From NCBI RefSeq assembly GCF_009931435.1, contig NZ_CP043414.1: DNA of 64,000 nucleotides. The stretch is one strand, 5' to 3'. A model generated the notes under the pieces. That model saw nothing but the letters and a program-made list of their open reading frames with translations. It did no database searches and had not been told where the DNA came from. The stretch comes from Escherichia coli (GTDB lineage: Bacteria; Pseudomonadota; Gammaproteobacteria; Enterobacterales; Enterobacteriaceae). Position numbers and translations under genes: made by a program. Of the stretch, positions 36,225 through 60,403 are shown piece by piece. Each line of letters begins with the position of its first letter. Positions within the stretch are counted from its first letter, which is position 1.

Positions 36225-36321
36225 TGTTTTTATTTATTCAATGAATTTATATTTCGTTGAATAGATAATATTTACCTGAATATTAGACGTTGGTTTTGTG
36301 ACTGATGTCGAATATTTGAAT

Positions 36322-36344
36322 GTCGGCTTGAAAAATAAGCCGAC
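36322..36344. other. Hairpin about 100 bp downstream of amiC
   Basis: Perfect 8-bp inverted repeat gtcggctt-gaaaaat-aagccgac; no U-tract. Confidence 0.3.
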
Positions 36345-36395
36345 CATCTCTTTAATTAAGCACAATTCCGTGTAATGTATATGCATTAGTTAATC

Positions 36396-36470
36396 ATCTT
36401 GTAACTGTTAAATCAGGCAAGGCAATGTTTGAAGTAATTATTACTTCTGACGTGCCTTGCCTTTTTTTTT
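36396..36470 (+). promoter_or_regulatory. RAT-like element overlapping a Rho-independent terminator (BglG/SacY-type antitermination leader)
   Basis: cttgtaactgttaaatcaggcaaggca resembles RAT sequences as I recall them; its 3' half forms the 5' arm of the hairpin caggcaaggca...tgccttgcc, followed by T9, just upstream of the antiterminator RBS. Confidence 0.55.
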
Positions 36471-36481
36471 GGAGCTATGGA

Positions 36482-37306
36482 ATGATCATCGAAAAAGTCA
36501 TGAACAATAATTGTGTACAGGCATCGATGAATGGACAGGAGGTTATCATTTCTGGGCCTGGCGTCGGTTACAACAAAAAATATGGAATGTCGGTCCCTGA
36601 GCATCCGGCTAACCGGATTTTTTATGTCAGAAATGAACAAAAAAATAAACTCTACAAATTGATTGAACATGTGGATATTGAGTATGTTTTTGTTGCCGAA
36701 AAAATAGTGCAATATGCAGAGAACAATCTCGAAAAAAATCTCAATCCATCGCTACTATTGATTCTTGCTGATCACATTTCGAATGCAATATCCCGAGTCG
36801 CTTCAGGCATACAAATTAATAATGTTTTCCTTGATGAAATCAAAGCGTTGTACAAAGCAGAGTATGCGATAAGTCGCGATGCATTAACTATCATTAATGA
36901 GCAATTTAGCGTTCAACTTCCTGATGATGAGATTGGTTTTATAGCATTGCATATTTTAAATAATTATGAAAATTCAGTTGATTATGAATCAGTACGGATT
37001 ATTGAGTTGTCGCAAATAATCACGGGGCTTATTGAAGTTGTTTATAACAGAAAGGTGGACAGAAGTTCATTTAATTATTCCAGGTTCATGATACACCTTA
37101 AATATTTTTCAAGTCGCGTATTATGCAATGAAAAAATAAAACAGAAAGATATTGGTGATCTCTATGAACAGTTTCTTGAGAAAGACATTCTGTTACAGCG
37201 CGCAATTCATGAAATTGAAAGGTATTTGTACGCCACTTTTAAATATGAATTGATTTTGGAAGAAAAACTATATCTCTCTATTCGCACCAAAGTATTAATG
37301 GACTAA
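36482..37306 (+). CDS. BglG/LicT-family transcription antiterminator (CAT RNA-binding domain + two PRDs)
   Basis: 274 aa from the ATG at 36482 (RBS ggag 8 nt upstream); N-terminal KVMNNNCV...GQEVIISGPGVGY matches the CAT domain; PRD-like histidine contexts; the ORF-track start at 36425 lies inside the terminator loop. Confidence 0.8.
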   Translation: MIIEKVMNNNCVQASMNGQEVIISGPGVGYNKKYGMSVPEHPANRIFYVRNEQKNKLYKLIEHVDIEYVFVAEKIVQYAENNLEKNLNPSLLLILADHISNAISRVASGIQINNVFLDEIKALYKAEYAISRDALTIINEQFSVQLPDDEIGFIALHILNNYENSVDYESVRIIELSQIITGLIEVVYNRKVDRSSFNYSRFMIHLKYFSSRVLCNEKIKQKDIGDLYEQFLEKDILLQRAIHEIERYLYATFKYELILEEKLYLSIRTKVLMD

Positions 37307-37337
37307 TTATATATAACATTTATATGAGATAACCCGC

Positions 37338-38918
37338 ATGAAACAAAAGAAAGCCTGGAGTTTTTTTCAGAGCCTGGGAAAGGCATTTATGTATCCCATC
37401 GCTCTGCTAAGTGTATGTGGCATGATGTTAGGGCTAGGAAGTGGTTTAGCCAGCGATGATATGGCAAAATTAATTCCACTACTGGCTATTCCCGTAATTA
37501 AAACCATTCTTGATTTTATTGTTAGCCTTGGTTTGTTTGCCTTTGTCAATTTACCTGTATTGTTTGCGATAGCTATACCTCTGGGGTTATTAAAAGAGAA
37601 AGAGGATAAAGCCTATGGCGCTTTTTCTGGCTTAATTGGTTTCATGGCGATGCATCTGGGAACGAACTTTTATCTTAAACAACATGACTTATTGGTCGCT
37701 GCTGATCAAATGTCGACACATGGGCAAACCATTATTCTGGGAATCCAGTCCTACAATACCAGTGTGTTGGGTGGGATTATAGCAGGATTATTAGTCGCCA
37801 GTATGTATAAAAAGATCGTTAACTTACGTATTCCTGAATCATTAGGATTTTATAGTGGCCCACGCCTGGTGCCTATTATTACACTGATTGTGATGAGTGG
37901 ATTTGGTCTGATCATCCCTTTTATCTGGCCGCCATTTTTCAATCTTTTCATGCTCATTGGCCACTGGATTTCAACTTCCGGTCCTGTTGGCTATTTTTTC
38001 TATGCAGTCGCCGAACGCGTGACGATACCTTTTGGTTTAAATCACCTGGTGACGTCAGTTTTCCGCTTTACCCCCATCGGCGGATCGGCAGTGATCGGCG
38101 GCGAAGAGTATTATGGCACCCTGAACATGTTTATGGCGTACGTCAAAGAGAATGCGGTCATTCCGCTGGATTTGGCGGGGAAAATGGAACAGGGCAAACT
38201 GATGATTCAGTATGGTCTGGCTGGTGCCGCGCTGGCGATGTATCGCACTGCTCATGCTCAAAACAGAAAAGCTATCAAAGCATTGCTTATTTCCGGGGTG
38301 CTTACAGTCATTATTGGCGGCGTCAGCGAACCGATTGAGTTTCTGTTCTTATTTGTCAGTCCACTGCTGTTTGTCTTCCATGCCTTTATGAATGGATTCG
38401 CCAACATGGTCTTGCCATATATGGGCGTGAAGATGGGATTTACTGGCGATCTGATTCAATTTATTAGCTTTGGCGTATTGCGTGGCACAAGAACAGGTTG
38501 GCCAATAGCGGTGTGTGTCGAAGTGGCCTATTTCTTTATTTATTACTTTGTGTTCCGTTGGACTATTCTCAAATTTAACCTGATGACGGTAGGCCGTGAA
38601 GAGTCCAGTCCTGTCACGCTGAACGCTCATGAGGATACGGCTATAGCGGATATCCCAACGCTTGATAAATCAGAGCTGCAAGCAGCGGAGCAGATGGTTA
38701 AGGCACTTGGTGGTAAAGAGAATATTAAATCCCTGGATAATTGCGTAACTCGTTTACGTTTAACAATCGCAGATATGGGATTGATTGACGAGGCAGCAAT
38801 AAAAAGAGCTGGCGGAATTGCGGTTGTTAAACTTGATCAAAATACCCTACAAGTCATTATCGGTACTAAAGTCATCGCCTTGCGTCGGGATATGGATAAC
38901 TACATGGGGATATGCTGA
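37338..38918 (+). CDS. PTS glucose-family EIICB component (no EIIA domain)
   Basis: 526 aa; multi-TM EIIC followed by C-terminal EIIB with cysteine motif LDNCVTRLRL. Confidence 0.85.
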   Translation: MKQKKAWSFFQSLGKAFMYPIALLSVCGMMLGLGSGLASDDMAKLIPLLAIPVIKTILDFIVSLGLFAFVNLPVLFAIAIPLGLLKEKEDKAYGAFSGLIGFMAMHLGTNFYLKQHDLLVAADQMSTHGQTIILGIQSYNTSVLGGIIAGLLVASMYKKIVNLRIPESLGFYSGPRLVPIITLIVMSGFGLIIPFIWPPFFNLFMLIGHWISTSGPVGYFFYAVAERVTIPFGLNHLVTSVFRFTPIGGSAVIGGEEYYGTLNMFMAYVKENAVIPLDLAGKMEQGKLMIQYGLAGAALAMYRTAHAQNRKAIKALLISGVLTVIIGGVSEPIEFLFLFVSPLLFVFHAFMNGFANMVLPYMGVKMGFTGDLIQFISFGVLRGTRTGWPIAVCVEVAYFFIYYFVFRWTILKFNLMTVGREESSPVTLNAHEDTAIADIPTLDKSELQAAEQMVKALGGKENIKSLDNCVTRLRLTIADMGLIDEAAIKRAGGIAVVKLDQNTLQVIIGTKVIALRRDMDNYMGIC

Positions 38919-40093
38919 TGGATGTTTTTAATACTCCTATTTCCCGCAAAGGAACATATTGTACCCAATGGGACTTTTGCGAGGACAGATTTGGTGTAAA
39001 AGATGTATTACCATTCTCTATTTCAGATATGGATCTTCCGATACCGGAAGCTATCATCAGGGCATTAAAAAAACGTCTGGAACACCCGATTTTAGGGTAC
39101 AGCCGTTGGCAGCATGATGACTATCTGAATGCGATAGTCAATTGGTATCATCAACAATATAAAACTGAAATCAAACCAGAATGGATCACCTATAGCCCAA
39201 GCGTGATGTACTCCATTGCTAAAGCAATAGAGTTATTGACATCGCATGGTGATAATATTCTCGTTTTTACACCTGTCTATAATGCATTTTTTGATATAAT
39301 TAAACATAGCGAGAGAAATATTCTGACAGCCTCTTTGATTATAAAAAATGAGGGGGGCTACGCTATCAATTGGCAAGATTTTGATCTTAAGATTCAAAGC
39401 GCAAAGATGGTGTTATTATGTAATCCTCATAACCCGACAGGAACCGTCTGGTCGGAAGAAGATCTGCATAAAATCGCTGCAAGCTGTGCAAGACATAATG
39501 TCTGGTTATGTTCAGATGAAATTCACAGTGATTTTGTTTTTAATCGTAGCTTTACATCTGCGCTTAAAATAAAAAAAGAAAAAGTAGTGGTGTTTAATTC
39601 GATATCGAAGACATTTAATGTTCCTGCGCTAACAGGATCGTATATGATTTCAACTGACGATAATTTTAATCATGAGTTCAGAACGATATCAAGATATCGC
39701 GATTTTGTAAACTCCCCATCCGTACTGAATATAATTGCAACTATTATTGCCTATAACGAATGTGAGGGATGGTTAACGTCATTAAAGGCACATATTGCCT
39801 CTAACATTCAATTCACCCAGCAGTATCTGAACGAAAATACTCCAGAATTGATCGTAAGGCCTGCTGATGGTTGCTATTTTTCGTGGATAGATTGCTCTGC
39901 TATTGGTTATCCCTTTGATGAATTCTACAGTCGATTAATTCATGAAGGCAAAGTGGGCATTATGGCGGGGAATGTCTATGGAACGGAGGGGGAGGGCTAC
40001 CTTCGTCTGAACCTGGCCTGCGGTCGAGAAAAATTATATATGGGGCTTACGCGTCTTGCGAGTGTAATTAAAAATATTAATCAAGGAAAATAA
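38912..40093 (+). CDS. MalY/PatB-family PLP-dependent C-S beta-lyase (class I/II aminotransferase fold)
   Basis: 393 aa; TYCTQWDF...DRFG N-terminal motif and PLP lysine context SISKTFNVPALTG; 7-bp overlap with the PTS gene. Confidence 0.85.
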   Translation: MLMDVFNTPISRKGTYCTQWDFCEDRFGVKDVLPFSISDMDLPIPEAIIRALKKRLEHPILGYSRWQHDDYLNAIVNWYHQQYKTEIKPEWITYSPSVMYSIAKAIELLTSHGDNILVFTPVYNAFFDIIKHSERNILTASLIIKNEGGYAINWQDFDLKIQSAKMVLLCNPHNPTGTVWSEEDLHKIAASCARHNVWLCSDEIHSDFVFNRSFTSALKIKKEKVVVFNSISKTFNVPALTGSYMISTDDNFNHEFRTISRYRDFVNSPSVLNIIATIIAYNECEGWLTSLKAHIASNIQFTQQYLNENTPELIVRPADGCYFSWIDCSAIGYPFDEFYSRLIHEGKVGIMAGNVYGTEGEGYLRLNLACGREKLYMGLTRLASVIKNINQGK

Positions 40094-40095
40094 AA

Positions 40096-40692
40096 ATGAA
40101 CAGCACGGATCTTATCCATCTCATTAAACATTTTATGCGTAACGAACATAAAGCAGTTGAAGAAGTTATTGATTCCCCCCTTTCGGAGGTCGCAAATTTA
40201 ATTAAAGTATTACAGTCTTGTCAGGGGAAAGTTGTTTTTATTGGTGTCGGTAAGTCCGGTATTATTGCCCGAAAACTCGCCGCAACATTTGCCAGCACTG
40301 GAACTCCCTCGTTTTTTGTTCACGGTACTGAAGCCGTACACGGCGATCTTGGGATGGTGGCGAAAGATGATGTTGTTATTCTTATTTCAAACAGTGGTGA
40401 GACGACAGAAATCCTGGCAACACTACCTAGTCTGAAAAAAATGGGTAATTATTTGATCTCCTTTACCCGCAGTCATCGCTCATCGCTTGCGATAAGTTGT
40501 GATTTATCCGTTGAAATTCCCGTAAAAAGTGAGGCGGATAATTTAGGTTTAGCGCCGTCATGCTCATCAACAGTCGTTCTGGTTGTTGGTGATGCGGTGG
40601 CGCTTGCGCTCTCCGAATTGAAAAAGTTTACTCGTGCTGATTTCGGCTTATATCATCCAGGAGGTGCGCTCGGTATTAAAGCAAACTCATAA
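40096..40692 (+). CDS. Single SIS-domain phosphosugar isomerase, arabinose-5-phosphate isomerase-like, lacking CBS domains
   Basis: 198 aa; GVGKSGIIARKLAATFASTGTPSFFVH and SNSGET motifs resemble the KpsF/GutQ SIS domain; no CBS pair. Confidence 0.8.
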   Translation: MNSTDLIHLIKHFMRNEHKAVEEVIDSPLSEVANLIKVLQSCQGKVVFIGVGKSGIIARKLAATFASTGTPSFFVHGTEAVHGDLGMVAKDDVVILISNSGETTEILATLPSLKKMGNYLISFTRSHRSSLAISCDLSVEIPVKSEADNLGLAPSCSSTVVLVVGDAVALALSELKKFTRADFGLYHPGGALGIKANS

Positions 40693-40762
40693 TTTTAGAA
40701 TATAAAACAGTAACCGGTCACGCCATCTTTTGGGGTGGCGTTCATTGATGTGAGTGTCAGCT

Positions 40763-41710
40763 ATGAAAAACGTTCTGGTCACCGTTCCCAGCTTTTCAGC
40801 GCGTTGTGTTTCTGCCAGCAAGCTGCTAAGAGAAAATCATTTTAACCTTATTATCAAGAATAATGTGGAGCATCTGGTTAAATCAGAATCCACAGTATTA
40901 CGAGAATCTATTTGCGCAGTCATTGCCGGAAAAGATTGTTATCAAGCGGATACGTTATCGCGACTACCAGGAGTGAAAATAATATCGAGATTCGGGACAG
41001 GGATTGATAATATTGATCTTCATACGGCTCGACAATCAGGTATTGTGGTCAATAATGCTGTTGGGATTAATTCAAATGCAGTCGCGGAATTTATCATTGG
41101 TCTTATTTTTGCGAGCATGAGAAATATCCCCGGTAGCTATCATGCGATGCAAAATGGTTATTGGGGCGAGTCGCATGGCTGCGAGTTACAAGGTAAACGT
41201 ATTGGCCTGCTTGGCTACGGCAATATTGGCAAAACACTGGCGAAAAGGTTATCTGGTTTTGATGTTGAGCTTTTAGCTTTTGACAAACAACCCGATTTCC
41301 AGGCCGCAGGCAAAGATGGAGTTCAGTTCGTATCAATTGAAGATATCTTTATGCAGTCTCATGTCATCATCGTTCTTTTGCCATTTTCTCCGGAGCTGGA
41401 GAACTTCATTAGTCATAAATATTTGTCGATGATGCGCAATGGTGCTCTTATCATCAACGCCGCAAGGGGAAAGTTGCTGGATGAGGGTGCTTTACTTCAG
41501 GTAATTGAAGAACGAAATGTTTTTGCAGCGCTGGATGTGTTTAGCTCTGAACCGCTAGCGCAATTTAGCCCATTGCTACATGCCAGGAATATCATTACAA
41601 CGCCGCATATTGCGGCCGCCACCGTTGAGTCATACCAGCAAACCGGGATATACGTTGCCAGGTCGATAATAGATTTCTTTGCAGGAAGGGAGATAAAAAA
41701 CGTGCTGTGA
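40763..41710 (+). CDS. D-isomer-specific 2-hydroxyacid dehydrogenase family protein (NAD-binding)
   Basis: About 315 aa from the ATG at 40763 (a GTG at 40754 is possible); GxGxxG motif GLLGYGNIGKTLAKRL; C-terminal catalytic His region TPHIAAAT. Confidence 0.8.
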   Translation: MKNVLVTVPSFSARCVSASKLLRENHFNLIIKNNVEHLVKSESTVLRESICAVIAGKDCYQADTLSRLPGVKIISRFGTGIDNIDLHTARQSGIVVNNAVGINSNAVAEFIIGLIFASMRNIPGSYHAMQNGYWGESHGCELQGKRIGLLGYGNIGKTLAKRLSGFDVELLAFDKQPDFQAAGKDGVQFVSIEDIFMQSHVIIVLLPFSPELENFISHKYLSMMRNGALIINAARGKLLDEGALLQVIEERNVFAALDVFSSEPLAQFSPLLHARNIITTPHIAAATVESYQQTGIYVARSIIDFFAGREIKNVL

Positions 41711-41736
41711 GTTCAGCTAAGGAAGATTTCAGGTAC

Positions 41737-41770
41737 AAAAAAACCGCAATTTGTGAAACACATTGCGGTT
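41737..41770 (-). terminator. Rho-independent terminator of the tRNA-fMet operon (minus strand)
   Basis: On the minus strand, hairpin aaaccgcaatgtgtttcacaaattgcggttt followed by T7. Confidence 0.6.
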
Positions 41771-41788
41771 TATCAGCATCATAAGTGT

Positions 41789-41865
<77 letters not shown>

Positions 41866-41898
41866 TCACCGTACTGCTTTACTTCATCAAATTTTGAT

Positions 41899-41975
<77 letters not shown>

Positions 41976-42008
41976 TCACCGTACTGCTTTACTTCATCAA
42001 ATTTTAAT

Positions 42009-42085
<77 letters not shown>

Positions 42086-54063: not shown

Positions 54064-54195
54064 AAAATGCGAAGAATAGATTGATACGATGAATATTTAT
54101 TCAAAGGTTATTCGTATCACAGTGGAGATGGCTTTAGTAGCGACGTTTATGCCGTACTTCACATTTTCAGTTTCTGATTATTGAGGAAAGCTGCA

Positions 54196-55695
54196 ATGTC
54201 CGAAACATTTTTGCAAATGAAGCATATCACCAAACGCTTTCCTGGAGTGTTGGCGCTTAATGACGTGCAATTTACCCTACGCCGGGGCGAGGTTCATGCA
54301 TTATTAGGTGAAAATGGTGCAGGAAAATCTACATTAATGAAAATTTTGTCGGGGGTTTATCAACCTGATGAAGGCGAAATAATTTTTGAAGATAAATTAG
54401 TCTCATTTTCTGATCCGTTAAGTGCGCAAAACGTAGGTATTACTATTATTCACCAGGAATTTAATTTATTTCCCGAGCTTACAGTAGAAGAAAATATTTT
54501 TATCGGCAGGGAGTTTTGTAAAAAAAATCGCTGGCGTCTGGATGAGAAACAGCAACGCAAGGCGACGATTGAAATTTTGCAAAAATTAAATTTGGCGATC
54601 AAACCAGATACTCTGGTTGCCGACCTTACGGTAGCTCAACAACAGATGGTAGAAATTGCCAAGGCCATTTCGGTTAACGCCAGGATTCTCATTATGGATG
54701 AACCTACTGCGGCGTTAACAGAAACTGAAATTGAAAGCTTATTTCGCGTCACCCGGTTATTGAAAGAACAGGGGACCGGCATTGTGTATATATCCCACCG
54801 TCTGGAAGAGTTGGCGCTAATTGCCGACCGCGCGACTGTAATGCGTGATGGTCAGTACATCAGCACAGTAGATTATGAGTGCGTAAAAATCAGCGATCTG
54901 ATTGCCATGATGGTTGGTCGCGATTTAGGGAATATCTATCCCCGCCGCGAGGCCATACAGCAGCGGATGCCGGTTCTGGAGGTCAACGGACTGACGCGCA
55001 AAGGCGTACTGAACGATATTAATTTTACGCTTTATCGTGGCGAGATCCTCGGCTTTGCCGGACTGATGGGGGCAGGTCGTACTGAACTTGCGCGTGCGAT
55101 TTTTGGTGCGGACTCCATTGACAGCGGAACGCTAAAGTTAAATGGTAAGGAAACCGTTATTAAAGATATTTCGGATGCTATTCAGCAGGGAATTAGTTAC
55201 CTGACGGAAGACCGAAAAAAAGAAGGGTTGGCACTGAATTTATCTGTTGAACGAAATATTATGTTAGGAAATTACCCTGAGTATTCCGATCGTTTTGGGA
55301 ATGTCGATTCGCGTCGTTGCCAACAAACCAGTGAGGAACAGGTAAAAGCGTTAAGGATTAAAACGCCAAATCTTGAACAGGCTGCATTAAATCTAAGTGG
55401 AGGAAATCAGCAGAAAATTATAATTGCACGTTGGGTGTGTAAAGATACTGATATTTTAATCTTCGATGAACCCACTCGCGGCATTGATGTTGGCGCCAAA
55501 CTGGAAATCTATGAGTTAATGAATCGCCTGGTGGCAAAAGGGAAATCAATCATCATGATCTCCTCTGAATTGCCGGAGGTGTTAGGAATGTGCGACCGTA
55601 TTTTAGTGATGCGCAGTGGTCGAATTACTGGCGAACTTAGCGCAAATGAAGCGACACAAGAAAAAATCATGCAATACGCGACGTTAGAGGATTAA
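54196..55695 (+). CDS. Sugar ABC transporter ATP-binding protein with two NBDs (RbsA/MglA/XylG-like)
   Basis: 499 aa from the ATG at 54196 (RBS gaggaaag); Walker A GENGAGKST and a second NBD. Confidence 0.85.
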   Translation: MSETFLQMKHITKRFPGVLALNDVQFTLRRGEVHALLGENGAGKSTLMKILSGVYQPDEGEIIFEDKLVSFSDPLSAQNVGITIIHQEFNLFPELTVEENIFIGREFCKKNRWRLDEKQQRKATIEILQKLNLAIKPDTLVADLTVAQQQMVEIAKAISVNARILIMDEPTAALTETEIESLFRVTRLLKEQGTGIVYISHRLEELALIADRATVMRDGQYISTVDYECVKISDLIAMMVGRDLGNIYPRREAIQQRMPVLEVNGLTRKGVLNDINFTLYRGEILGFAGLMGAGRTELARAIFGADSIDSGTLKLNGKETVIKDISDAIQQGISYLTEDRKKEGLALNLSVERNIMLGNYPEYSDRFGNVDSRRCQQTSEEQVKALRIKTPNLEQAALNLSGGNQQKIIIARWVCKDTDILIFDEPTRGIDVGAKLEIYELMNRLVAKGKSIIMISSELPEVLGMCDRILVMRSGRITGELSANEATQEKIMQYATLED

Positions 55696-55698
55696 ATT

Positions 55699-56682
55699 AT
55701 GACTATCTCTGTAACCTCTCCAGACAGCAATAATAAGAAAATAAAGATAAATAAAGAACTTTTGATGCGCCTTGCGCCTCTTTTTAGCTTAATTATATTA
55801 GTGCTGTTTTTTAGTTTCAGCTCTCCCTTTTTCTTTAATACCGAAAATATCATGACGATTGCTCTGCAAACGTCGGTTATCGGCATTATGGCCATTGGGG
55901 TAACTTTCGTCATTATTACCGCGGGCATCGATCTTTCATTGGGTTCCGTGGTGGCTTTTTCTGGTGTCGCCGTGGGGATTTGCGCCACACTGGGCCTGCC
56001 GCTGCCAGTGTGTATTATTGCCGGTGTTTTAGCCGGTGGAATGTGCGGCTATGTGAATGGTTTGTTGGTCACTAAAATGACTATTCCACCGTTTATCGCT
56101 ACCTTGGGCCTGATGATGTCCGTCAGAGGTATCAATATGGTGATGACCGACGGGCGCGCCATCTATTTTGCCGATTACCCGATGTTCAAAACGCTCGCTC
56201 AGGGACGCTTGTTTGATGTGCTGCCTTATCCTGTTTTCTACCTGGTCATTGTGGCGCTTGTCGGCGCTTACATCCTGAAGAAAACGGTTATTGGTCGCTA
56301 TGTCTATGCCGTAGGCAGTAATGAAGTTGCTGCTCATCTTTCTGGTATTAAAGTTCAGCGCGTGAAAATTTTCGTCTATGCCTTCTGTGGTTTATTAACC
56401 GGGATTGCGGGTGTCATTCTCGCTTCTCGTCTCAACTCCGGACAACCGACGGTGGGTGTGGGTTATGAGCTGGAAGCTATTGCTGCGGTAGTGATCGGCG
56501 GAACCAGCTTAATGGGCGGTATTGGCACTATTGGCGGCACAATCATTGGCGCTTTCATTATGAGTGTACTGAAAAATGGCCTCAATTTAATGGGGGTCTC
56601 TCAGTTCTGGCAAATGGTCGCGATGGGCGTAGTTGTGGTCGCTGCCGTTTACCTCGATACATTACGCAAAAAGATTCGTTGA
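55699..56682 (+). CDS. Sugar ABC transporter permease (RbsC-like)
   Basis: 327 aa, multi-TM; starts 3 bp after the ATPase stop. Confidence 0.85.
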   Translation: MTISVTSPDSNNKKIKINKELLMRLAPLFSLIILVLFFSFSSPFFFNTENIMTIALQTSVIGIMAIGVTFVIITAGIDLSLGSVVAFSGVAVGICATLGLPLPVCIIAGVLAGGMCGYVNGLLVTKMTIPPFIATLGLMMSVRGINMVMTDGRAIYFADYPMFKTLAQGRLFDVLPYPVFYLVIVALVGAYILKKTVIGRYVYAVGSNEVAAHLSGIKVQRVKIFVYAFCGLLTGIAGVILASRLNSGQPTVGVGYELEAIAAVVIGGTSLMGGIGTIGGTIIGAFIMSVLKNGLNLMGVSQFWQMVAMGVVVVAAVYLDTLRKKIR

Positions 56683-56755
56683 CTTAGGCTCCCTGTTTTA
56701 TCGGGAAACAACTGCCCTGACGTTAAGGGTGATTCACTCAGAACGGAGTACAACA

Positions 56756-57706
56756 ATGAAAACCAGGCATTTTATCTATGCGTTATCTCTGCTGGCTTGC
56801 GTAAGTTCCAGCGCACTGGCGAAGGATTTAAATCTTCCGGTTGTTAGTAAAGGTTTCCAACATGAATTCTGGCAAACCGTAAAAATGGGGACTGAAGCTG
56901 CGGCTAAAGAGTTGGGGGATAAAACCAGCTATGTTGGCCCGGCTGATGAAACGCAAATAGCCGAGCAAATTCAGTTAGTCGAAAATGCGATGGCGCAGAA
57001 ACCGAATGGCTTGCTTCTGGCAGCCCTCGACGCGAATGCGCTCGCCCCACTGGTAGAAACGGCAAATTCACGCGGTATCAAAGTGGTGACCTTTGATTCA
57101 GGCATCAATTCAGACATTCCGGTGAGTTTTGTCGCCACCAATAACCGTAAAGCAGGTGCTCAGGCAGCTGATGCCTTAGCTGCGCAGGTAAATAATAAAG
57201 GGAAAGTTGGGATTATCGCGCACGTTGCAGGAACATCTTCCGCTATTGAACGCTCGGAAGGCTTCATGGAGCGTATGAAAGAAAAATATCCTGACATTAA
57301 AGTCTTACCCGTTCAGTACAGCGATGGTGACCCGCAAAAAGCGATGGATAAAACTATCGATATGATTCAGGCCAATCCCGATCTTGCTGGGATCTATGGC
57401 ACCAATGAAGGTTCAACGCTCGGGGTGGCGAATGCCATTGATAGCCAGAATCTGAAAGGTAAGGTGAAGGTCATTGGTTTTGATAGTACGGAAGCGATTA
57501 TTAACTTCCTGAAGAACGGGGTCATTCAGGGCTTTGTTGTTCAGGATGCATACCAGATTGGCTATCAAGGGATCAAAACGTTGAACGCGGCCCTTTCGGG
57601 GCAAGCCGTTGAAAAAGAGATCGATATTCCCGTGAAATTTGTTAATGCCGAGAATATTAACACGCCAGAAATCGACAAACTCCTGCACCCATTCGGTAAG
57701 AAATAA
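56756..57706 (+). CDS. Periplasmic sugar-binding protein (RbsB-like)
   Basis: 316 aa from the ATG at 56756; signal peptide MKTRHFIYALSLLACVSSSALA; type-I periplasmic binding fold. Confidence 0.85.
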   Translation: MKTRHFIYALSLLACVSSSALAKDLNLPVVSKGFQHEFWQTVKMGTEAAAKELGDKTSYVGPADETQIAEQIQLVENAMAQKPNGLLLAALDANALAPLVETANSRGIKVVTFDSGINSDIPVSFVATNNRKAGAQAADALAAQVNNKGKVGIIAHVAGTSSAIERSEGFMERMKEKYPDIKVLPVQYSDGDPQKAMDKTIDMIQANPDLAGIYGTNEGSTLGVANAIDSQNLKGKVKVIGFDSTEAIINFLKNGVIQGFVVQDAYQIGYQGIKTLNAALSGQAVEKEIDIPVKFVNAENINTPEIDKLLHPFGKK

Positions 57707-57759
57707 AAAAATTGGGGATGAATTCTCATCCCCGTTATCTCCAGCGTCAGGGAGGCTTT

Positions 57760-59340
57760 ATGCACAACGGTTATTTTCTCGGTGTCGATGTCGGATCGGC
57801 CAGTGTCAGGGCAGGCGTTTACAGTGCCAGTGGCCACAGGCTGGCATTCGCTACTGCGCCCGTCTCCCAGTTTCGCCCTGGCGGCGAGCGTGTCGAACAG
57901 TCTTCGGCAGAGATCTGGCAACAAGTTTGTAAAACGGTGAAAGAGGCGACAGCTTTGGCAGGCATCCCCATTTCCGCAATTCGCTCACTGGGTTTTGACG
58001 CTACCTGCTCGCTGGTTGTTCTTGATGAACAAGGCCAGGGTTTAGCGGTTTCGTCCGGTGGATCTGCGAATCACGACATTATTATGTGGATGGATCATCG
58101 TGCAACTGTCGAGACGGCGCAGATTAACGCAACGAAGGATCCCGTATTGCGCTACGTTGGCGGCGAAGTGAGCGTCGAGATGGAGTTACCAAAGTTACGT
58201 TGGTTGAAGACGCATCTACCGCAAACCTGGCAGGCCGCTCATCGCTTTTTCGATCTGGCGGATTTTCTGGTCTGGAAAGCAACAGGGCGAGACGTCGCGG
58301 GATTGTGCACGCTAACGTGTAAATGGAATTATCTGGCTCATGAACAACGCTTTAGCCATAGCTTACTGGAATCGGTAGACCTGACCGACATGCTCGAAAG
58401 AATTCCCGCCGAAATTCTTCCGCCTGGTGCTGCCGTGGGAACTTTAACTGCCACAGCTGCTGAAGAATTAGGATTAACGACCAATGTTATCGTGGCCAGT
58501 GGTTTGATTGATGCCCATGCCGGTGGCATGGCGCTGGCTGGCGCGCAGCCATCAGGAACGCTGGCATTGATAAGCGGAACGTCGAATTGCCACATGTTGT
58601 GCAGTGAAAAAGAAATATTCACCCCTGGCGTCTGGGGGCCATACTGGTCGGCCATGTTGCCAAATTACTGGCTAACTGAAGGCGGGCAAAGCGCCGCAGG
58701 GGCGCTGGTGGAGTGGACGCTTCAGGAGTCCGGGGCAAGCGCAAATCTTTTTAACAAGGCGCAGCAACGCGGGTGTCATCCGATTCAACTGATTAATGAA
58801 TGGGTAGCCGCCCTGGAAGCTAACGAGTCAGAACCCACACGAAATTTACATGTGCTTGCCGATCATCACGGCAACCGTTCGCCACGAGCGCGGCCCGATG
58901 CCAGAGGCAGTGTTTATGGCTTAACACTGGAGCGTGGTGAAAATCAGCTCGCGCGGCTTTATCTTGCGACTTTACAGGCAATAGCCTTTGGCACCAGACA
59001 TATTATTGAAACTCTGCGGGAAAATGGGCATACCATTACCCGATTAACATTATGTGGTGGTGCAACGCACAACCCTTTATGGCTACGCGAATATGCAGAC
59101 GTGACAGGTTGCGATATCCACCTGATGCAAGAAGAAGATGCCGTTACGTTGGGCGCAGCAATTAGCGGCGCTGTTGCCAGCGGAGCATGGGGGGATTTTA
59201 CATCTGCGTGTAAAGCAATGGTTGAAGCCGGAGAGGTTATTCAGGTAAATCCACAACGCCGTGAATTTTTAGAGCGTAAATACCGGGTTTACCTGACGCT
59301 TTGGGAGCAACAACAGGCGGTTAACCAACTGATGCAATAA
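57760..59340 (+). CDS. FGGY-family pentulose/carbohydrate kinase (D-ribulokinase-like)
   Basis: 526 aa from the ATG at 57760 (RBS ggagg); N-terminal GVDVGSASVR motif. Confidence 0.8.
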   Translation: MHNGYFLGVDVGSASVRAGVYSASGHRLAFATAPVSQFRPGGERVEQSSAEIWQQVCKTVKEATALAGIPISAIRSLGFDATCSLVVLDEQGQGLAVSSGGSANHDIIMWMDHRATVETAQINATKDPVLRYVGGEVSVEMELPKLRWLKTHLPQTWQAAHRFFDLADFLVWKATGRDVAGLCTLTCKWNYLAHEQRFSHSLLESVDLTDMLERIPAEILPPGAAVGTLTATAAEELGLTTNVIVASGLIDAHAGGMALAGAQPSGTLALISGTSNCHMLCSEKEIFTPGVWGPYWSAMLPNYWLTEGGQSAAGALVEWTLQESGASANLFNKAQQRGCHPIQLINEWVAALEANESEPTRNLHVLADHHGNRSPRARPDARGSVYGLTLERGENQLARLYLATLQAIAFGTRHIIETLRENGHTITRLTLCGGATHNPLWLREYADVTGCDIHLMQEEDAVTLGAAISGAVASGAWGDFTSACKAMVEAGEVIQVNPQRREFLERKYRVYLTLWEQQQAVNQLMQ

Positions 59341-59404
59341 GACAAAAGTTGAAAATACTTTTATGATTGTGATTTGACGTCTGGATGTTAACTGGGAAAT
59401 ACCT

Positions 59405-60403
59405 ATGGCTAAAACAGTAGAGCAGATAGCCAGCGACCTGAATTTATCGGTTACGACCGTGCGACTGGTGCTAAATGGAAAAGCGGAACAATATCGAATC
59501 AGCGTCAAAACCCAAACGCGTATCAATGAATATGTTGAACGCTATGGTTATATCATTAATCATTCCGCTCGCAGCCTTAAGCTTAACAAAACTGATACAT
59601 TAGGGTTGATTGTTCCCAACATATCCAACGTCTTTTTTGCTACGCTGGCAGAAAAACTCGAACAACGCTGTCGACGTTCCGGATATCAACTTACAATCAG
59701 TTGCACTTATGATGATGTTGACTATGAAAATAAATTGACGAAAGCATTTATCGCACGAAATGTAGATGGTCTTTTTATTGTTCCTTCGACGCTGGAAAAT
59801 CAGCAGCATCATTTACGCAAAATTCGTAAGCCAATGGTTTTACTCGATCGTGATTTTAAATATACCGATAACGCATTGGTAGAGAGTAATAATATTTCTG
59901 GCGGAGAAAAGCTGACGCAAAATATTCTTGAGGCCGGGCAGGCTCCAGTATGGTTTTTGCTGGGAGATGCCGGTTTGCCGAGTATCAGCGATCGTCTGAC
60001 AGGTTATTTGAATGCGTTGGCAAAAAAAGGGATTACCCATCGCGATTGGGTGCGGGAAGGTCCGGTAAATACTCCGGAAGGCGGCTATGTCATTATGGAA
60101 AAACTCATTGAAGAGCAGGGATGTCCGCAGGCATTTATCGCCTCGTCTTTACCTGTGCTTGAAGGCGCTGTCCGCGCGATTCGCGACCGTCTTGGCGCTG
60201 TACCGCCAGAAATCAATATTGGCACTTTCGATGAACATCCTATGCTGGGATTTCTCGCCAACAATGTCTGGTCAATGCAGCAGGATGAAAATGCCTGGGC
60301 AGAAAAAGCGTTCGAAATGATGTTAAGCGCGATCGAAGAAAGACCAGTAAAAAAAACAGTTAAAGTAGAAATGAAATTAATTAAGCGCATAAGAAAAAAA
60401 TAA
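59405..60403 (+). CDS. LacI-family transcriptional regulator
   Basis: 332 aa; N-terminal HTH TVEQIASDLNLSVTTVRLVLNG; periplasmic-binding-like effector domain; AT-rich codon usage by eye. Confidence 0.85.
   Translation: MAKTVEQIASDLNLSVTTVRLVLNGKAEQYRISVKTQTRINEYVERYGYIINHSARSLKLNKTDTLGLIVPNISNVFFATLAEKLEQRCRRSGYQLTISCTYDDVDYENKLTKAFIARNVDGLFIVPSTLENQQHHLRKIRKPMVLLDRDFKYTDNALVESNNISGGEKLTQNILEAGQAPVWFLLGDAGLPSISDRLTGYLNALAKKGITHRDWVREGPVNTPEGGYVIMEKLIEEQGCPQAFIASSLPVLEGAVRAIRDRLGAVPPEINIGTFDEHPMLGFLANNVWSMQQDENAWAEKAFEMMLSAIEERPVKKTVKVEMKLIKRIRKK

What the first reader, a model, noticed from the sequence alone, without database searches (positions are those of the whole stretch)
40096..40692. 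Minimal single-SIS arabinose-5-phosphate-isomerase-like enzyme without CBS domains
Canonical arabinose-5-phosphate isomerases (KdsD, GutQ, KpsF) carry a SIS domain plus a tandem CBS pair; this 198-aa protein is SIS only. In a PTS catabolic operon it more likely interconverts a pentulose or hexulose phosphate than feeds Kdo synthesis. It would add a third or fourth API-like paralog to the cell.
Basis: partly seen in the sequence, partly recalled or inferred. Interest (0 to 1): 0.5.

Follow-up and report, generated by a model that had tools for sequence, protein, structure and literature searches.

The report
Known single-domain arabinose-5-phosphate isomerase (c3406 ortholog)

Summary
Window 40096-40692(+) is an intact 198-codon gene whose only Pfam domain is SIS. 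No CBS remnant exists anywhere in the 64 kb.

It is not new. The protein is 192/198 identical to the CFT073 protein at the same locus. That CFT073 protein has the same sequence as PDB 5UQI/5VHU and is c3406, the subject of Mosberg et al. 2011 (J Bacteriol 193:2981).

The gene is fourth in a five-gene operon, preceded by a RAT-like motif and a terminator:
- a LicT-like antiterminator
- a MalX-like PTS EIICB
- a MalY/PatB C-S lyase
- the SIS protein
- a PGDH-like dehydrogenase

The operon lies between amiC and the three tRNA-Met genes, where K-12 has only 73 bases. It is present in 1688 of 5426 complete E. coli genomes.

The five residues I recall as catalytic in KdsD are invariant, and dN/dS against CFT073 is 0.04. 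All 120 best homologs are SIS-only proteins. The antiterminator-EIICB-lyase-SIS core recurs in Clostridioides difficile (CD3031-CD3027), which argues for a catabolic role rather than Kdo synthesis.

What remains open is the PTS substrate. Interest is low.

The parts
36399..36420 (+). RAT-like motif (binding site for a BglG/LicT-type antiterminator) in the operon leader
   Evidence: TTGTAACTGTTAAATCAGGCAA is the only match in 64 kb to TTGTNACTG-N4-8-CAGGCAA, with 0 expected by chance. The same motif lies upstream of the antiterminator gene in CFT073, Atlantibacter and Citrobacter, and in the C. difficile and Terrisporobacter operons. Its resemblance to the published RAT consensus is from my memory.
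36415..36471 (+). Leader intrinsic terminator; its 5' arm overlaps the RAT-like motif
   Evidence: Long hairpin followed by U9. Whole 96-nt leader fold (36385-36480): MFE -30.3 kcal/mol, z -5.05 against 200 shuffles, none as good. It ends 10 bases before the antiterminator ATG.
36482..37306 (+). BglG/LicT-family transcription antiterminator (274 aa; c3410-end of the CFT073 cluster)
   Evidence: NCBIfam LicT E 2e-67. RefSeq names it a PRD domain-containing protein with this start. The ORF list start at 36425 is an over-extension that would run through the terminator.
37338..38918 (+). PTS EIICB, MalX-like (glucose/maltose family), with no EIIA domain
   Evidence: TIGR02004 PTS-IIBC-malX E 5.7e-161, 536.6 bits, below the 632 cut-off. 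68% identical to C. difficile CD3030 MalX.
38918..40093 (+). MalY/PatB-family PLP-dependent C-S lyase (391 aa)
   Evidence: TIGR04350 366 bits, above the 340 cut-off. Best solved relative is E. coli MalY 1D2F, E 3e-85. RefSeq start.
40096..40692 (+). The finding: single-SIS-domain arabinose-5-phosphate isomerase, ortholog of CFT073 c3406
   Evidence: Pfam SIS only. 192/198 identical to CFT073 WP_001066223.1, whose sequence equals PDB 5UQI/5VHU. K53, H82, E105, E146 and H187 are invariant. dN/dS 0.039.
40763..41710 (+). D-isomer 2-hydroxyacid dehydrogenase (PGDH-like, 315 aa), an optional fifth gene
   Evidence: TIGR01327 PGDH E 6e-62, far below cut-off. Best PDB hit 1WWK. Frameshifted in the closest genome. 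Not called in the Enterobacter and Atlantibacter loci; present in Citrobacter.
41789..42085 (-). Three tandem tRNA-Met genes (the metZ, metW and metV genes of K-12), right-hand border of the operon
   Evidence: ARAGORN. K-12 has the same three genes 73 bases from amiC, with no operon between them.

Best explanation
The gene encodes the E. coli single-domain D-arabinose-5-phosphate isomerase known as c3406 in strain CFT073. It is a KdsD-type SIS domain without the C-terminal CBS pair, and it interconverts arabinose 5-phosphate and ribulose 5-phosphate. By analogy with other SIS aldose-ketose isomerases, this would proceed through an enediol intermediate.

It is translated from a PTS operon controlled by antitermination. 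Uptake of an unidentified sugar through the MalX-like EIICB would free the LicT-like antiterminator. The antiterminator would then bind the RAT-like motif and prevent formation of the leader terminator.

Its most likely cellular job is catabolic: to pass a phosphosugar made in this pathway into the pentose phosphate pathway. Supplying A5P for Kdo is a capacity it has, but probably not its purpose.

Shown here: the anatomy, the orthology, residue conservation, selection, and conservation of the operon across phyla. Taken from the literature: the API activity. Inferred: the catabolic role and the regulatory logic.
For: Orthology:
- 97% identity to the CFT073 protein at the same position of the same cluster.
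- The PDB 5UQI/5VHU chain differs from the window protein at the same six positions as the CFT073 protein, so the two are the same sequence.
- Bryant et al. place c3405-c3410, labelled 'PTS system, maltose/glucose specific', in PAI-CFT073-metV.
- The Mosberg et al. 2011 title and its use as the API reference appear.

Enzyme family:
- The NCBIfam KdsD model is the best hit (E 4e-58), matching profile positions 36-201 of 328.
- 59% identity to KdsD and 43% to GutQ.
- KdsD K59, H88, E111, E152 and H193 correspond to K53, H82, E105, E146 and H187, which are invariant in 9 sequences.
- None of the six substitutions against c3406 falls in an invariant column.

Functional gene:
- dN/dS 0.039.

Regulation:
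- A unique RAT-like motif overlaps a strong terminator, and the motif is conserved in orthologous operons.

Catabolic role:
- The antiterminator-EIICB-lyase-SIS core recurs in Enterobacter, Atlantibacter, Citrobacter, C. difficile and Terrisporobacter.
- In Terrisporobacter it is followed by split transketolase genes.
- Mammaliicoccus lentus has the order RbsD, LacI, SIS, PfkB kinase, MFS transporter, which looks like a pentose to pentose-5-P to Ru5P route.
Against: - The PTS substrate is unknown, and nothing here shows that A5P is formed in the pathway.
- A glucose-family EIICB is expected to deliver a hexose-type 6-phosphate, not a pentose phosphate.
- Complementation of API mutants is not specific evidence of role. 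Eukaryotic GFATs, which also carry SIS domains, complement the same kdsD gutQ strain and isomerise A5P/Ru5P.
- The Mosberg paper could not be read here, so its kinetic and complementation details rest on my memory.
- The window allele differs from c3406 at six residues and has not itself been assayed.
Confidence: 0.9

Rival explanations
1. The API activity is a side activity. The physiological substrate would be a different phosphosugar, for example a hexose- or thio/amino-sugar 6-phosphate produced after PTS uptake and the MalY-like lyase step.
For: The gene is tightly coupled to the C-S lyase: a 2-base gap here and 8-base overlaps in Enterobacter and Atlantibacter. The transporter is a glucose-family EIICB. 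SIS enzymes with other main functions also isomerise A5P and complement API mutants. From memory, the single-SIS Listeria protein 3FXA (hit at E 6e-30) was reported as a glucose-6-phosphate isomerase rather than an API.
Against: All five residues I recall as catalytic in KdsD are kept, and identity to KdsD is high at 59%. As I recall, c3406 has kinetics like full-length APIs. Pentose-type contexts exist for Gram-positive homologs.
Confidence: 0.25
2. It is a 3'-truncated remnant of a KdsD/GutQ/KpsF-type gene that lost its CBS pair (a pseudogene).
For: It aligns only to the N-terminal half of the KdsD, GutQ and KpsF models and falls just below the TIGR00393 cut-off, 191.8 against 203.7 bits.
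Against: No CBS remnant is found in 64 kb. dN/dS is 0.039. All 120 best homologs are SIS-only. The same C-terminus is seen from E. coli to Firmicutes. The identical-length ortholog was crystallised.
Confidence: 0.01
3. It is a 6-phospho-3-hexuloisomerase (HxlB/PHI) or another single-SIS enzyme such as GmhA or MurQ. This corresponds to the 'hexulose phosphate' alternative.
For: Similar size and a single SIS domain. Weak NCBIfam hits: HxlB E 1.7e-13, MurQ E 3e-7, GmhA E 7e-4.
Against: HxlB scores 50.8 bits against a 160 cut-off, while the KdsD model scores 197 bits. No hexulose-phosphate synthase gene is in the operon.
Confidence: 0.03
4. Its main role is as a back-up or conditional supplier of A5P for Kdo or capsule synthesis in E. 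coli.
For: It is a bona fide API by the literature. GutQ is a precedent for an API encoded inside a PTS sugar operon.
Against: The module is conserved in Gram-positives, which make no Kdo. It is absent from about 69% of complete E. coli genomes. KdsD and GutQ already cover this need.
Confidence: 0.07

Closest known systems
c3406 of E. coli CFT073 (WP_001066223.1; PDB 5UQI, 5VHU; Mosberg et al. 2011, J Bacteriol 193:2981)
   Same: Same length (198 aa), 192/198 identical, same operon and same chromosomal neighbourhood next to amiC. This is the same gene in another strain.
   Different: Six substitutions (N3S, H15R, L18H, F32V, A104T, H128R), none at an invariant position. In CFT073 a type VI secretion island of about 27 kb separates the operon from metV; here the operon abuts the tRNA genes.
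KdsD, GutQ and KpsF, the canonical two-part arabinose-5-phosphate isomerases
   Same: Homologous SIS catalytic domain: 59% identity to KdsD and 43% to GutQ, with K59, H88, E111, E152 and H193 equivalents conserved. GutQ is also encoded inside a PTS sugar operon.
   Different: No tandem CBS pair. It scores below the curated cut-offs of all three full-length models.
Other single-domain APIs: Bacteroides fragilis API (PDB 3ETN) and Clostridium tetani CtAPI (Cech et al. 2017)
   Same: SIS-only proteins of about 200 aa. 3ETN is hit at E 4.7e-30 over residues 6-196. [quoted passage not shown] The CtAPI paper is cited.
   Different: More distant than KdsD's SIS domain. The genomic context of the B. 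fragilis and C. tetani genes was not examined here.
C. difficile CD3031-CD3027 operon (antiterminator, malX, malY, 'putative phosphosugar isomerase' CD3028, EIIA)
   Same: Same gene order. EIICB is 68% identical, SIS 52%, and the best C. difficile lyase hits are 47-49%. Described as one PTS operon, strongly regulated in biofilm and in vivo.
   Different: It has its own EIIA-Glc gene and no dehydrogenase. Four tandem RAT-like motifs lie between the antiterminator and PTS genes. CD3028 is annotated only as a putative phosphosugar isomerase in the papers found here.
E. coli K-12 malX-malY
   Same: A MalX-like EIICB gene followed by a MalY C-S lyase gene.
   Different: From my knowledge, K-12 malXY has no SIS or dehydrogenase gene and is controlled by the MalI repressor, not by antitermination.

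Membership tests
Arabinose-5-phosphate isomerase (KdsD/GutQ/KpsF family) | SIS catalytic domain of the KdsD type | tested here: met
   Pfam SIS E 1.6e-25. NCBIfam KdsD model E 4e-58 and TIGR00393 E 1.7e-56. 59% identity to KdsD over 154 aa.
Arabinose-5-phosphate isomerase (KdsD/GutQ/KpsF family) | Active-site residues (KdsD K59, H88, E111, E152, H193; the list is from my knowledge of Sommaruga 2009 and Gourlay 2010) | tested here: met
   K53, H82, E105, E146 and H187 are invariant in the 9-sequence alignment with KdsD and GutQ.
Arabinose-5-phosphate isomerase (KdsD/GutQ/KpsF family) | Tandem CBS domains C-terminal to SIS | tested here: not met
   No CBS in Pfam. No CBS-like sequence in 64 kb. 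The curated full-length cut-offs are not reached: 191.8 against 203.7, 197 against 505, and 163 against 481 bits. The canonical architecture therefore fails, and the protein belongs to the single-domain subgroup.
Arabinose-5-phosphate isomerase (KdsD/GutQ/KpsF family) | Catalyses A5P to Ru5P interconversion and rescues a kdsD gutQ mutant | not testable with these tools
   Reported for the 97%-identical CFT073 ortholog. The Mosberg 2011 title and a summary are. The details are from my memory because the paper is not held.
Single-domain APIs (c3406, B. fragilis 3ETN, C. tetani CtAPI) | About 200 aa, SIS only, KdsD-like active site | tested here: met
   198 aa. 97% identical to the c3406/5UQI sequence. 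3ETN is hit at E 4.7e-30.
6-phospho-3-hexuloisomerase (HxlB/PHI) | Score above the TIGR03127 cut-off; partnered with a hexulose-phosphate synthase | tested here: not met
   50.8 bits against a 160 cut-off. No HPS gene in the operon.
BglG/LicT-type antitermination-controlled PTS operon | CAT/PRD antiterminator, a RAT site overlapping a leader terminator, and a cognate EIIB-containing PTS permease | tested here: met
   LicT model E 2e-67 and an EIICB gene. Unique RAT-like motif overlapping a hairpin plus U9 with z -5.05, conserved in orthologous loci. Actual antitermination was not tested.

The most novel reading that the evidence does not exclude
The conserved four-gene core (LicT-like antiterminator, MalX-like EIICB, MalY/PatB C-S lyase, 198-aa SIS isomerase) is shared by E. 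coli (part of c3405-c3410) and C. difficile (CD3031-CD3027). It may encode an undescribed catabolic route for a sugar conjugate, for example an S- or O-glycosyl amino acid. In that route the lyase would release a phosphosugar and the SIS enzyme would isomerise it. A5P/Ru5P would then be either the true funnel into the pentose phosphate pathway or only a side activity. Rare in-frame lyase-SIS fusion proteins in E. coli and Shigella records hint at a functional partnership, but they could be homopolymer sequencing errors.
Probability: 0.2. Interest if true: 0.5.

Novelty: already known. Interest (0 to 1): 0.1.

Why it matters
The protein needs no new interpretation. It shows that CBS domains are dispensable for API catalysis, and that has been in the literature since 2011.

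The open question is the substrate of the surrounding operon. By my recollection of Lloyd et al. 2009 and Mosberg et al. 2011, this operon is linked to urinary-tract fitness of CFT073. Its C. difficile counterpart is among the most strongly regulated PTS operons in biofilm and infection transcriptomes.

Identifying that sugar would also explain why MalX-type transporters are so often paired with MalY-type C-S lyases.

Tried and rejected
- **Papers not held.** I tried to read Mosberg 2011, Cech 2017 and Gourlay 2010 and Lloyd 2009. Only their titles, taken from other papers' reference lists, could be confirmed.
- **Locus-tag searches.** Full-text searches for c3406 and c3405-c3410 gave mostly unrelated hits. 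The one useful paper was PMC2831201.
- **Truncation or frameshift.** Rejected by tblastn of the CBS halves, dN/dS, and homolog lengths.
- **HxlB, MurQ or GmhA membership.** Rejected on NCBIfam scores.
- **Plasmid origin.** No plasmid record has a relative above 60% identity, and the best listed hits are kdsD, several of them on chromosome-sized records.
- **Promoter scan.** Uninformative: 14 sites found against 16.8 expected. The terminator scan missed the leader hairpin because its loop rule is too strict, so I folded the leader directly.
- **Insertion junctions.** Comparing the K-12 empty site with the window junctions gave no clear target duplication for the operon itself.
- **Sandbox files.** Two scripts failed because loci are stored several to a file; this was resolved.

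Full report
**1. The observation**

Window 40096-40692(+) is an ATG-to-TAA ORF of 198 codons. It begins two bases after the stop of the upstream gene, and AAGGA lies upstream of the ATG. Pfam finds one SIS domain (PF01380, residues 41-170, E 1.6e-25) and no CBS domain.

I took full-length KdsD and GutQ from K-12 and ran their CBS halves by tblastn against all 64 kb. Nothing scored better than E 1.9. The SIS halves hit only this gene, at 59% and 43% identity.

In a multiple alignment the protein stops five residues after the HPGGALG motif, which is where the CBS pair of KdsD and GutQ begins. Only 61 bases separate the stop from the next gene.

**2. Identity**

A search of the sequences of solved structures returned a 198-aa chain, PDB 5UQI/5VHU 'phosphosugar isomerase', at E 9e-121 with six differences.

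The operon DNA (window 36300-41800) matches 1688 of 5426 complete E. coli genomes. RefSeq annotates it there as PRD protein, PTS EIIC, MalY/PatB, 'KpsF/GutQ family sugar-phosphate isomerase' and phosphoglycerate dehydrogenase.

In CFT073 (NC_004431) the same five genes lie next to amiC at the far end of the type VI secretion island attached to metV. The CFT073 protein is 192/198 identical to the window protein. It differs at the same six positions as the PDB chain, so 5UQI is the CFT073 protein.

Bryant et al. list c3405-c3410 as a 'PTS system, maltose/glucose specific' gene set inside PAI-CFT073-metV. Two papers cite Mosberg et al. [quoted passage not shown] That paper is not held in the library.

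From my memory of its abstract:
- c3406 is homologous to the SIS domain of APIs but lacks the CBS pair.
- It is soluble and active, with properties like those of full-length APIs.
- It complements an A5P-auxotrophic kdsD gutQ strain.
- The operon is proposed to take up and use an unknown carbohydrate.

**3. Anatomy of the unit**

The operon has a leader followed by five genes:
- RAT-like motif at 36399-36420. It is the only match in 64 kb to TTGTNACTG-N4-8-CAGGCAA, with 0 expected by chance.
- Terminator at 36415-36471, overlapping that motif: a long hairpin followed by U9. The 96-nt leader folds at -30.3 kcal/mol, z -5.05.
- LicT-like antiterminator, 36482-37306.
- MalX-like EIICB without an EIIA domain, 37338-38918.
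- MalY/PatB C-S lyase, 38918-40093. It is above the TIGR04350 cut-off, and its closest structure is E. coli MalY.
- The SIS gene, 40096-40692.
- A PGDH-like D-2-hydroxyacid dehydrogenase, 40763-41710.

Three tRNA-Met genes on the minus strand follow at 41789-42085, and then mltA. K-12 has only 73 bases between amiC and metV.

The RAT-like motif is conserved at the equivalent place in CFT073, Atlantibacter and Citrobacter, and in the C. difficile and Terrisporobacter operons. This arrangement is the standard logic of a BglG/LicT-controlled PTS operon. The regulation itself is inferred, not tested.

**4. Is it a working enzyme?**

The residues I know as the KdsD active site (K59, H88, E111, E152, H193) correspond to K53, H82, E105, E146 and H187. 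All five are invariant across the window protein, c3406, KdsD, GutQ and five single-domain homologs. None of the six substitutions against c3406 touches an invariant column.

Against the CFT073 allele the gene has dS 0.34 and dN 0.013, giving dN/dS 0.039. The other four operon genes have dN/dS 0.03-0.12.

**5. History**

The operon is AT-rich, 33-46% G+C against 51-57% in the flanks. Its EIICB is 68% identical to that of C. difficile. Both points suggest transfer from low-G+C Firmicutes.

However, synonymous divergence between the window and CFT073 alleles (0.15-0.43) is similar to that of flanking amiC (0.37) and mltA (0.23). Atlantibacter hermannii also carries the cluster at the same argA-amiC/mltA site. 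The acquisition therefore looks old, with later losses in lineages such as K-12. This is an inference.

In CFT073 a repeat of about 27 bases flanks the type VI secretion island. One copy follows metV and the other precedes the dehydrogenase gene, while the window has a single copy. The secretion island seems to have inserted between metV and a pre-existing operon. No close ortholog is found on plasmids.

**6. Role**

All 120 best homologs are SIS-only, with full-length ones about 190-218 aa. Outside the Enterobacteriaceae they come mostly from Firmicutes.

Conservation of the module:

| Organism | Genes found |
|---|---|
| Enterobacter | antiterminator, EIICB, lyase, SIS; no dehydrogenase |
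| Atlantibacter | same core at the same chromosomal site; no dehydrogenase gene called |
| Citrobacter freundii | different site; dehydrogenase present |
| Clostridioides difficile | core plus an EIIA gene |
| Terrisporobacter mayombei | core plus EIIA, then split transketolase and a phosphoglucomutase-type gene |

The C. difficile operon is CD3031-CD3027. There malY is reported as essential and as the most biofilm-induced gene, and CD3028 is annotated as a 'putative phosphosugar isomerase'.

Other Gram-positive homologs sit in different sugar contexts. Mammaliicoccus has RbsD-LacI-SIS-PfkB-MFS, which looks like a pentose kinase-isomerase route. Lactiplantibacillus and Companilactobacillus have the gene beside a GAT-type PTS, a DHDPS-like gene and a KDPG-aldolase-type gene.

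From general knowledge these Gram-positive organisms make no Kdo, so the module's purpose is most simply catabolic.

One caution applies. Rescue of a kdsD gutQ mutant is not proof of physiological role, because eukaryotic GFATs, which also contain SIS domains, rescue the same strain. A different native substrate therefore remains possible, at about 0.25.

**7. Comparison and verdict**

The protein fails the canonical API architecture (no CBS) and all three curated full-length cut-offs. It meets every testable feature of the single-domain API subgroup. That subgroup includes c3406 itself, B. fragilis 3ETN and C. tetani CtAPI. It is not an HxlB-type hexuloisomerase: 50.8 bits against a 160 cut-off.

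Novelty: already known. Interest: low, 0.1. The residual question, for the operon rather than the protein, is the identity of the PTS substrate and why a C-S lyase and an API-type isomerase are so tightly coupled.

Noticed in passing
L016:3999-4331 (C. difficile), compared with window 36399-36420: C. difficile has four tandem RAT-like motifs spaced about 104 bases apart between the antiterminator and PTS genes. E. coli has a single motif upstream of the antiterminator gene. A fourfold repeated antiterminator site is unusual.
   Followed up: no
L002:7388-7440 and L002:34520-34580 (CFT073); window 41711-41788: A direct repeat of about 27 bases (ATTTATTAGAATGCTGACAAACCGCAA) flanks the CFT073 type VI secretion island, once after metV and once before the dehydrogenase gene. 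The window has one copy and no island. The c3405-c3410 operon therefore seems to pre-date the island it is usually counted in.
   Followed up: partly
window 40080-40100 (lyase/SIS junction); proteins P0123, P0125, P0127, P0129: Some E. coli and Shigella records encode in-frame MalY-SIS fusion proteins of 550-592 aa. In P0123 and P0125 the junction reads ...NINQEK(K/E)MNNTD..., while P0129 joins the two parts through an internal deletion. A common third allele (P0127, 402 aa, 532 members) has lost the lyase stop and overlaps the SIS gene. The junction is an A-rich run, so the fusions may be real slips or sequencing errors.
   Followed up: partly
window 40763-41710; L001:8464-9410: The dehydrogenase gene is intact in the window but frameshifted in the closest complete genome. 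No dehydrogenase gene is called in the Enterobacter and Atlantibacter loci. It looks like a dispensable accessory of the module.
   Followed up: partly
window 54181-60403: Between fucI and fucA, where K-12 has fucP as I recall, the window carries five ORFs. In the closest genome these are annotated as a sugar ABC transporter (ATPase, permease, binding protein), an FGGY-family kinase and a LacI regulator.
   Followed up: no
window 36300-41800 against 5426 E. coli genomes: The operon occurs in 31% of complete genomes, in distinct identity classes: 94 genomes at 99% or more, 50 at 95-99% and 1544 at 90-95%. The window carries the minority class. As I recall, the 2011 paper described the operon as present in only a small number of pathogenic strains, so it is much more widespread than that.
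   Followed up: partly
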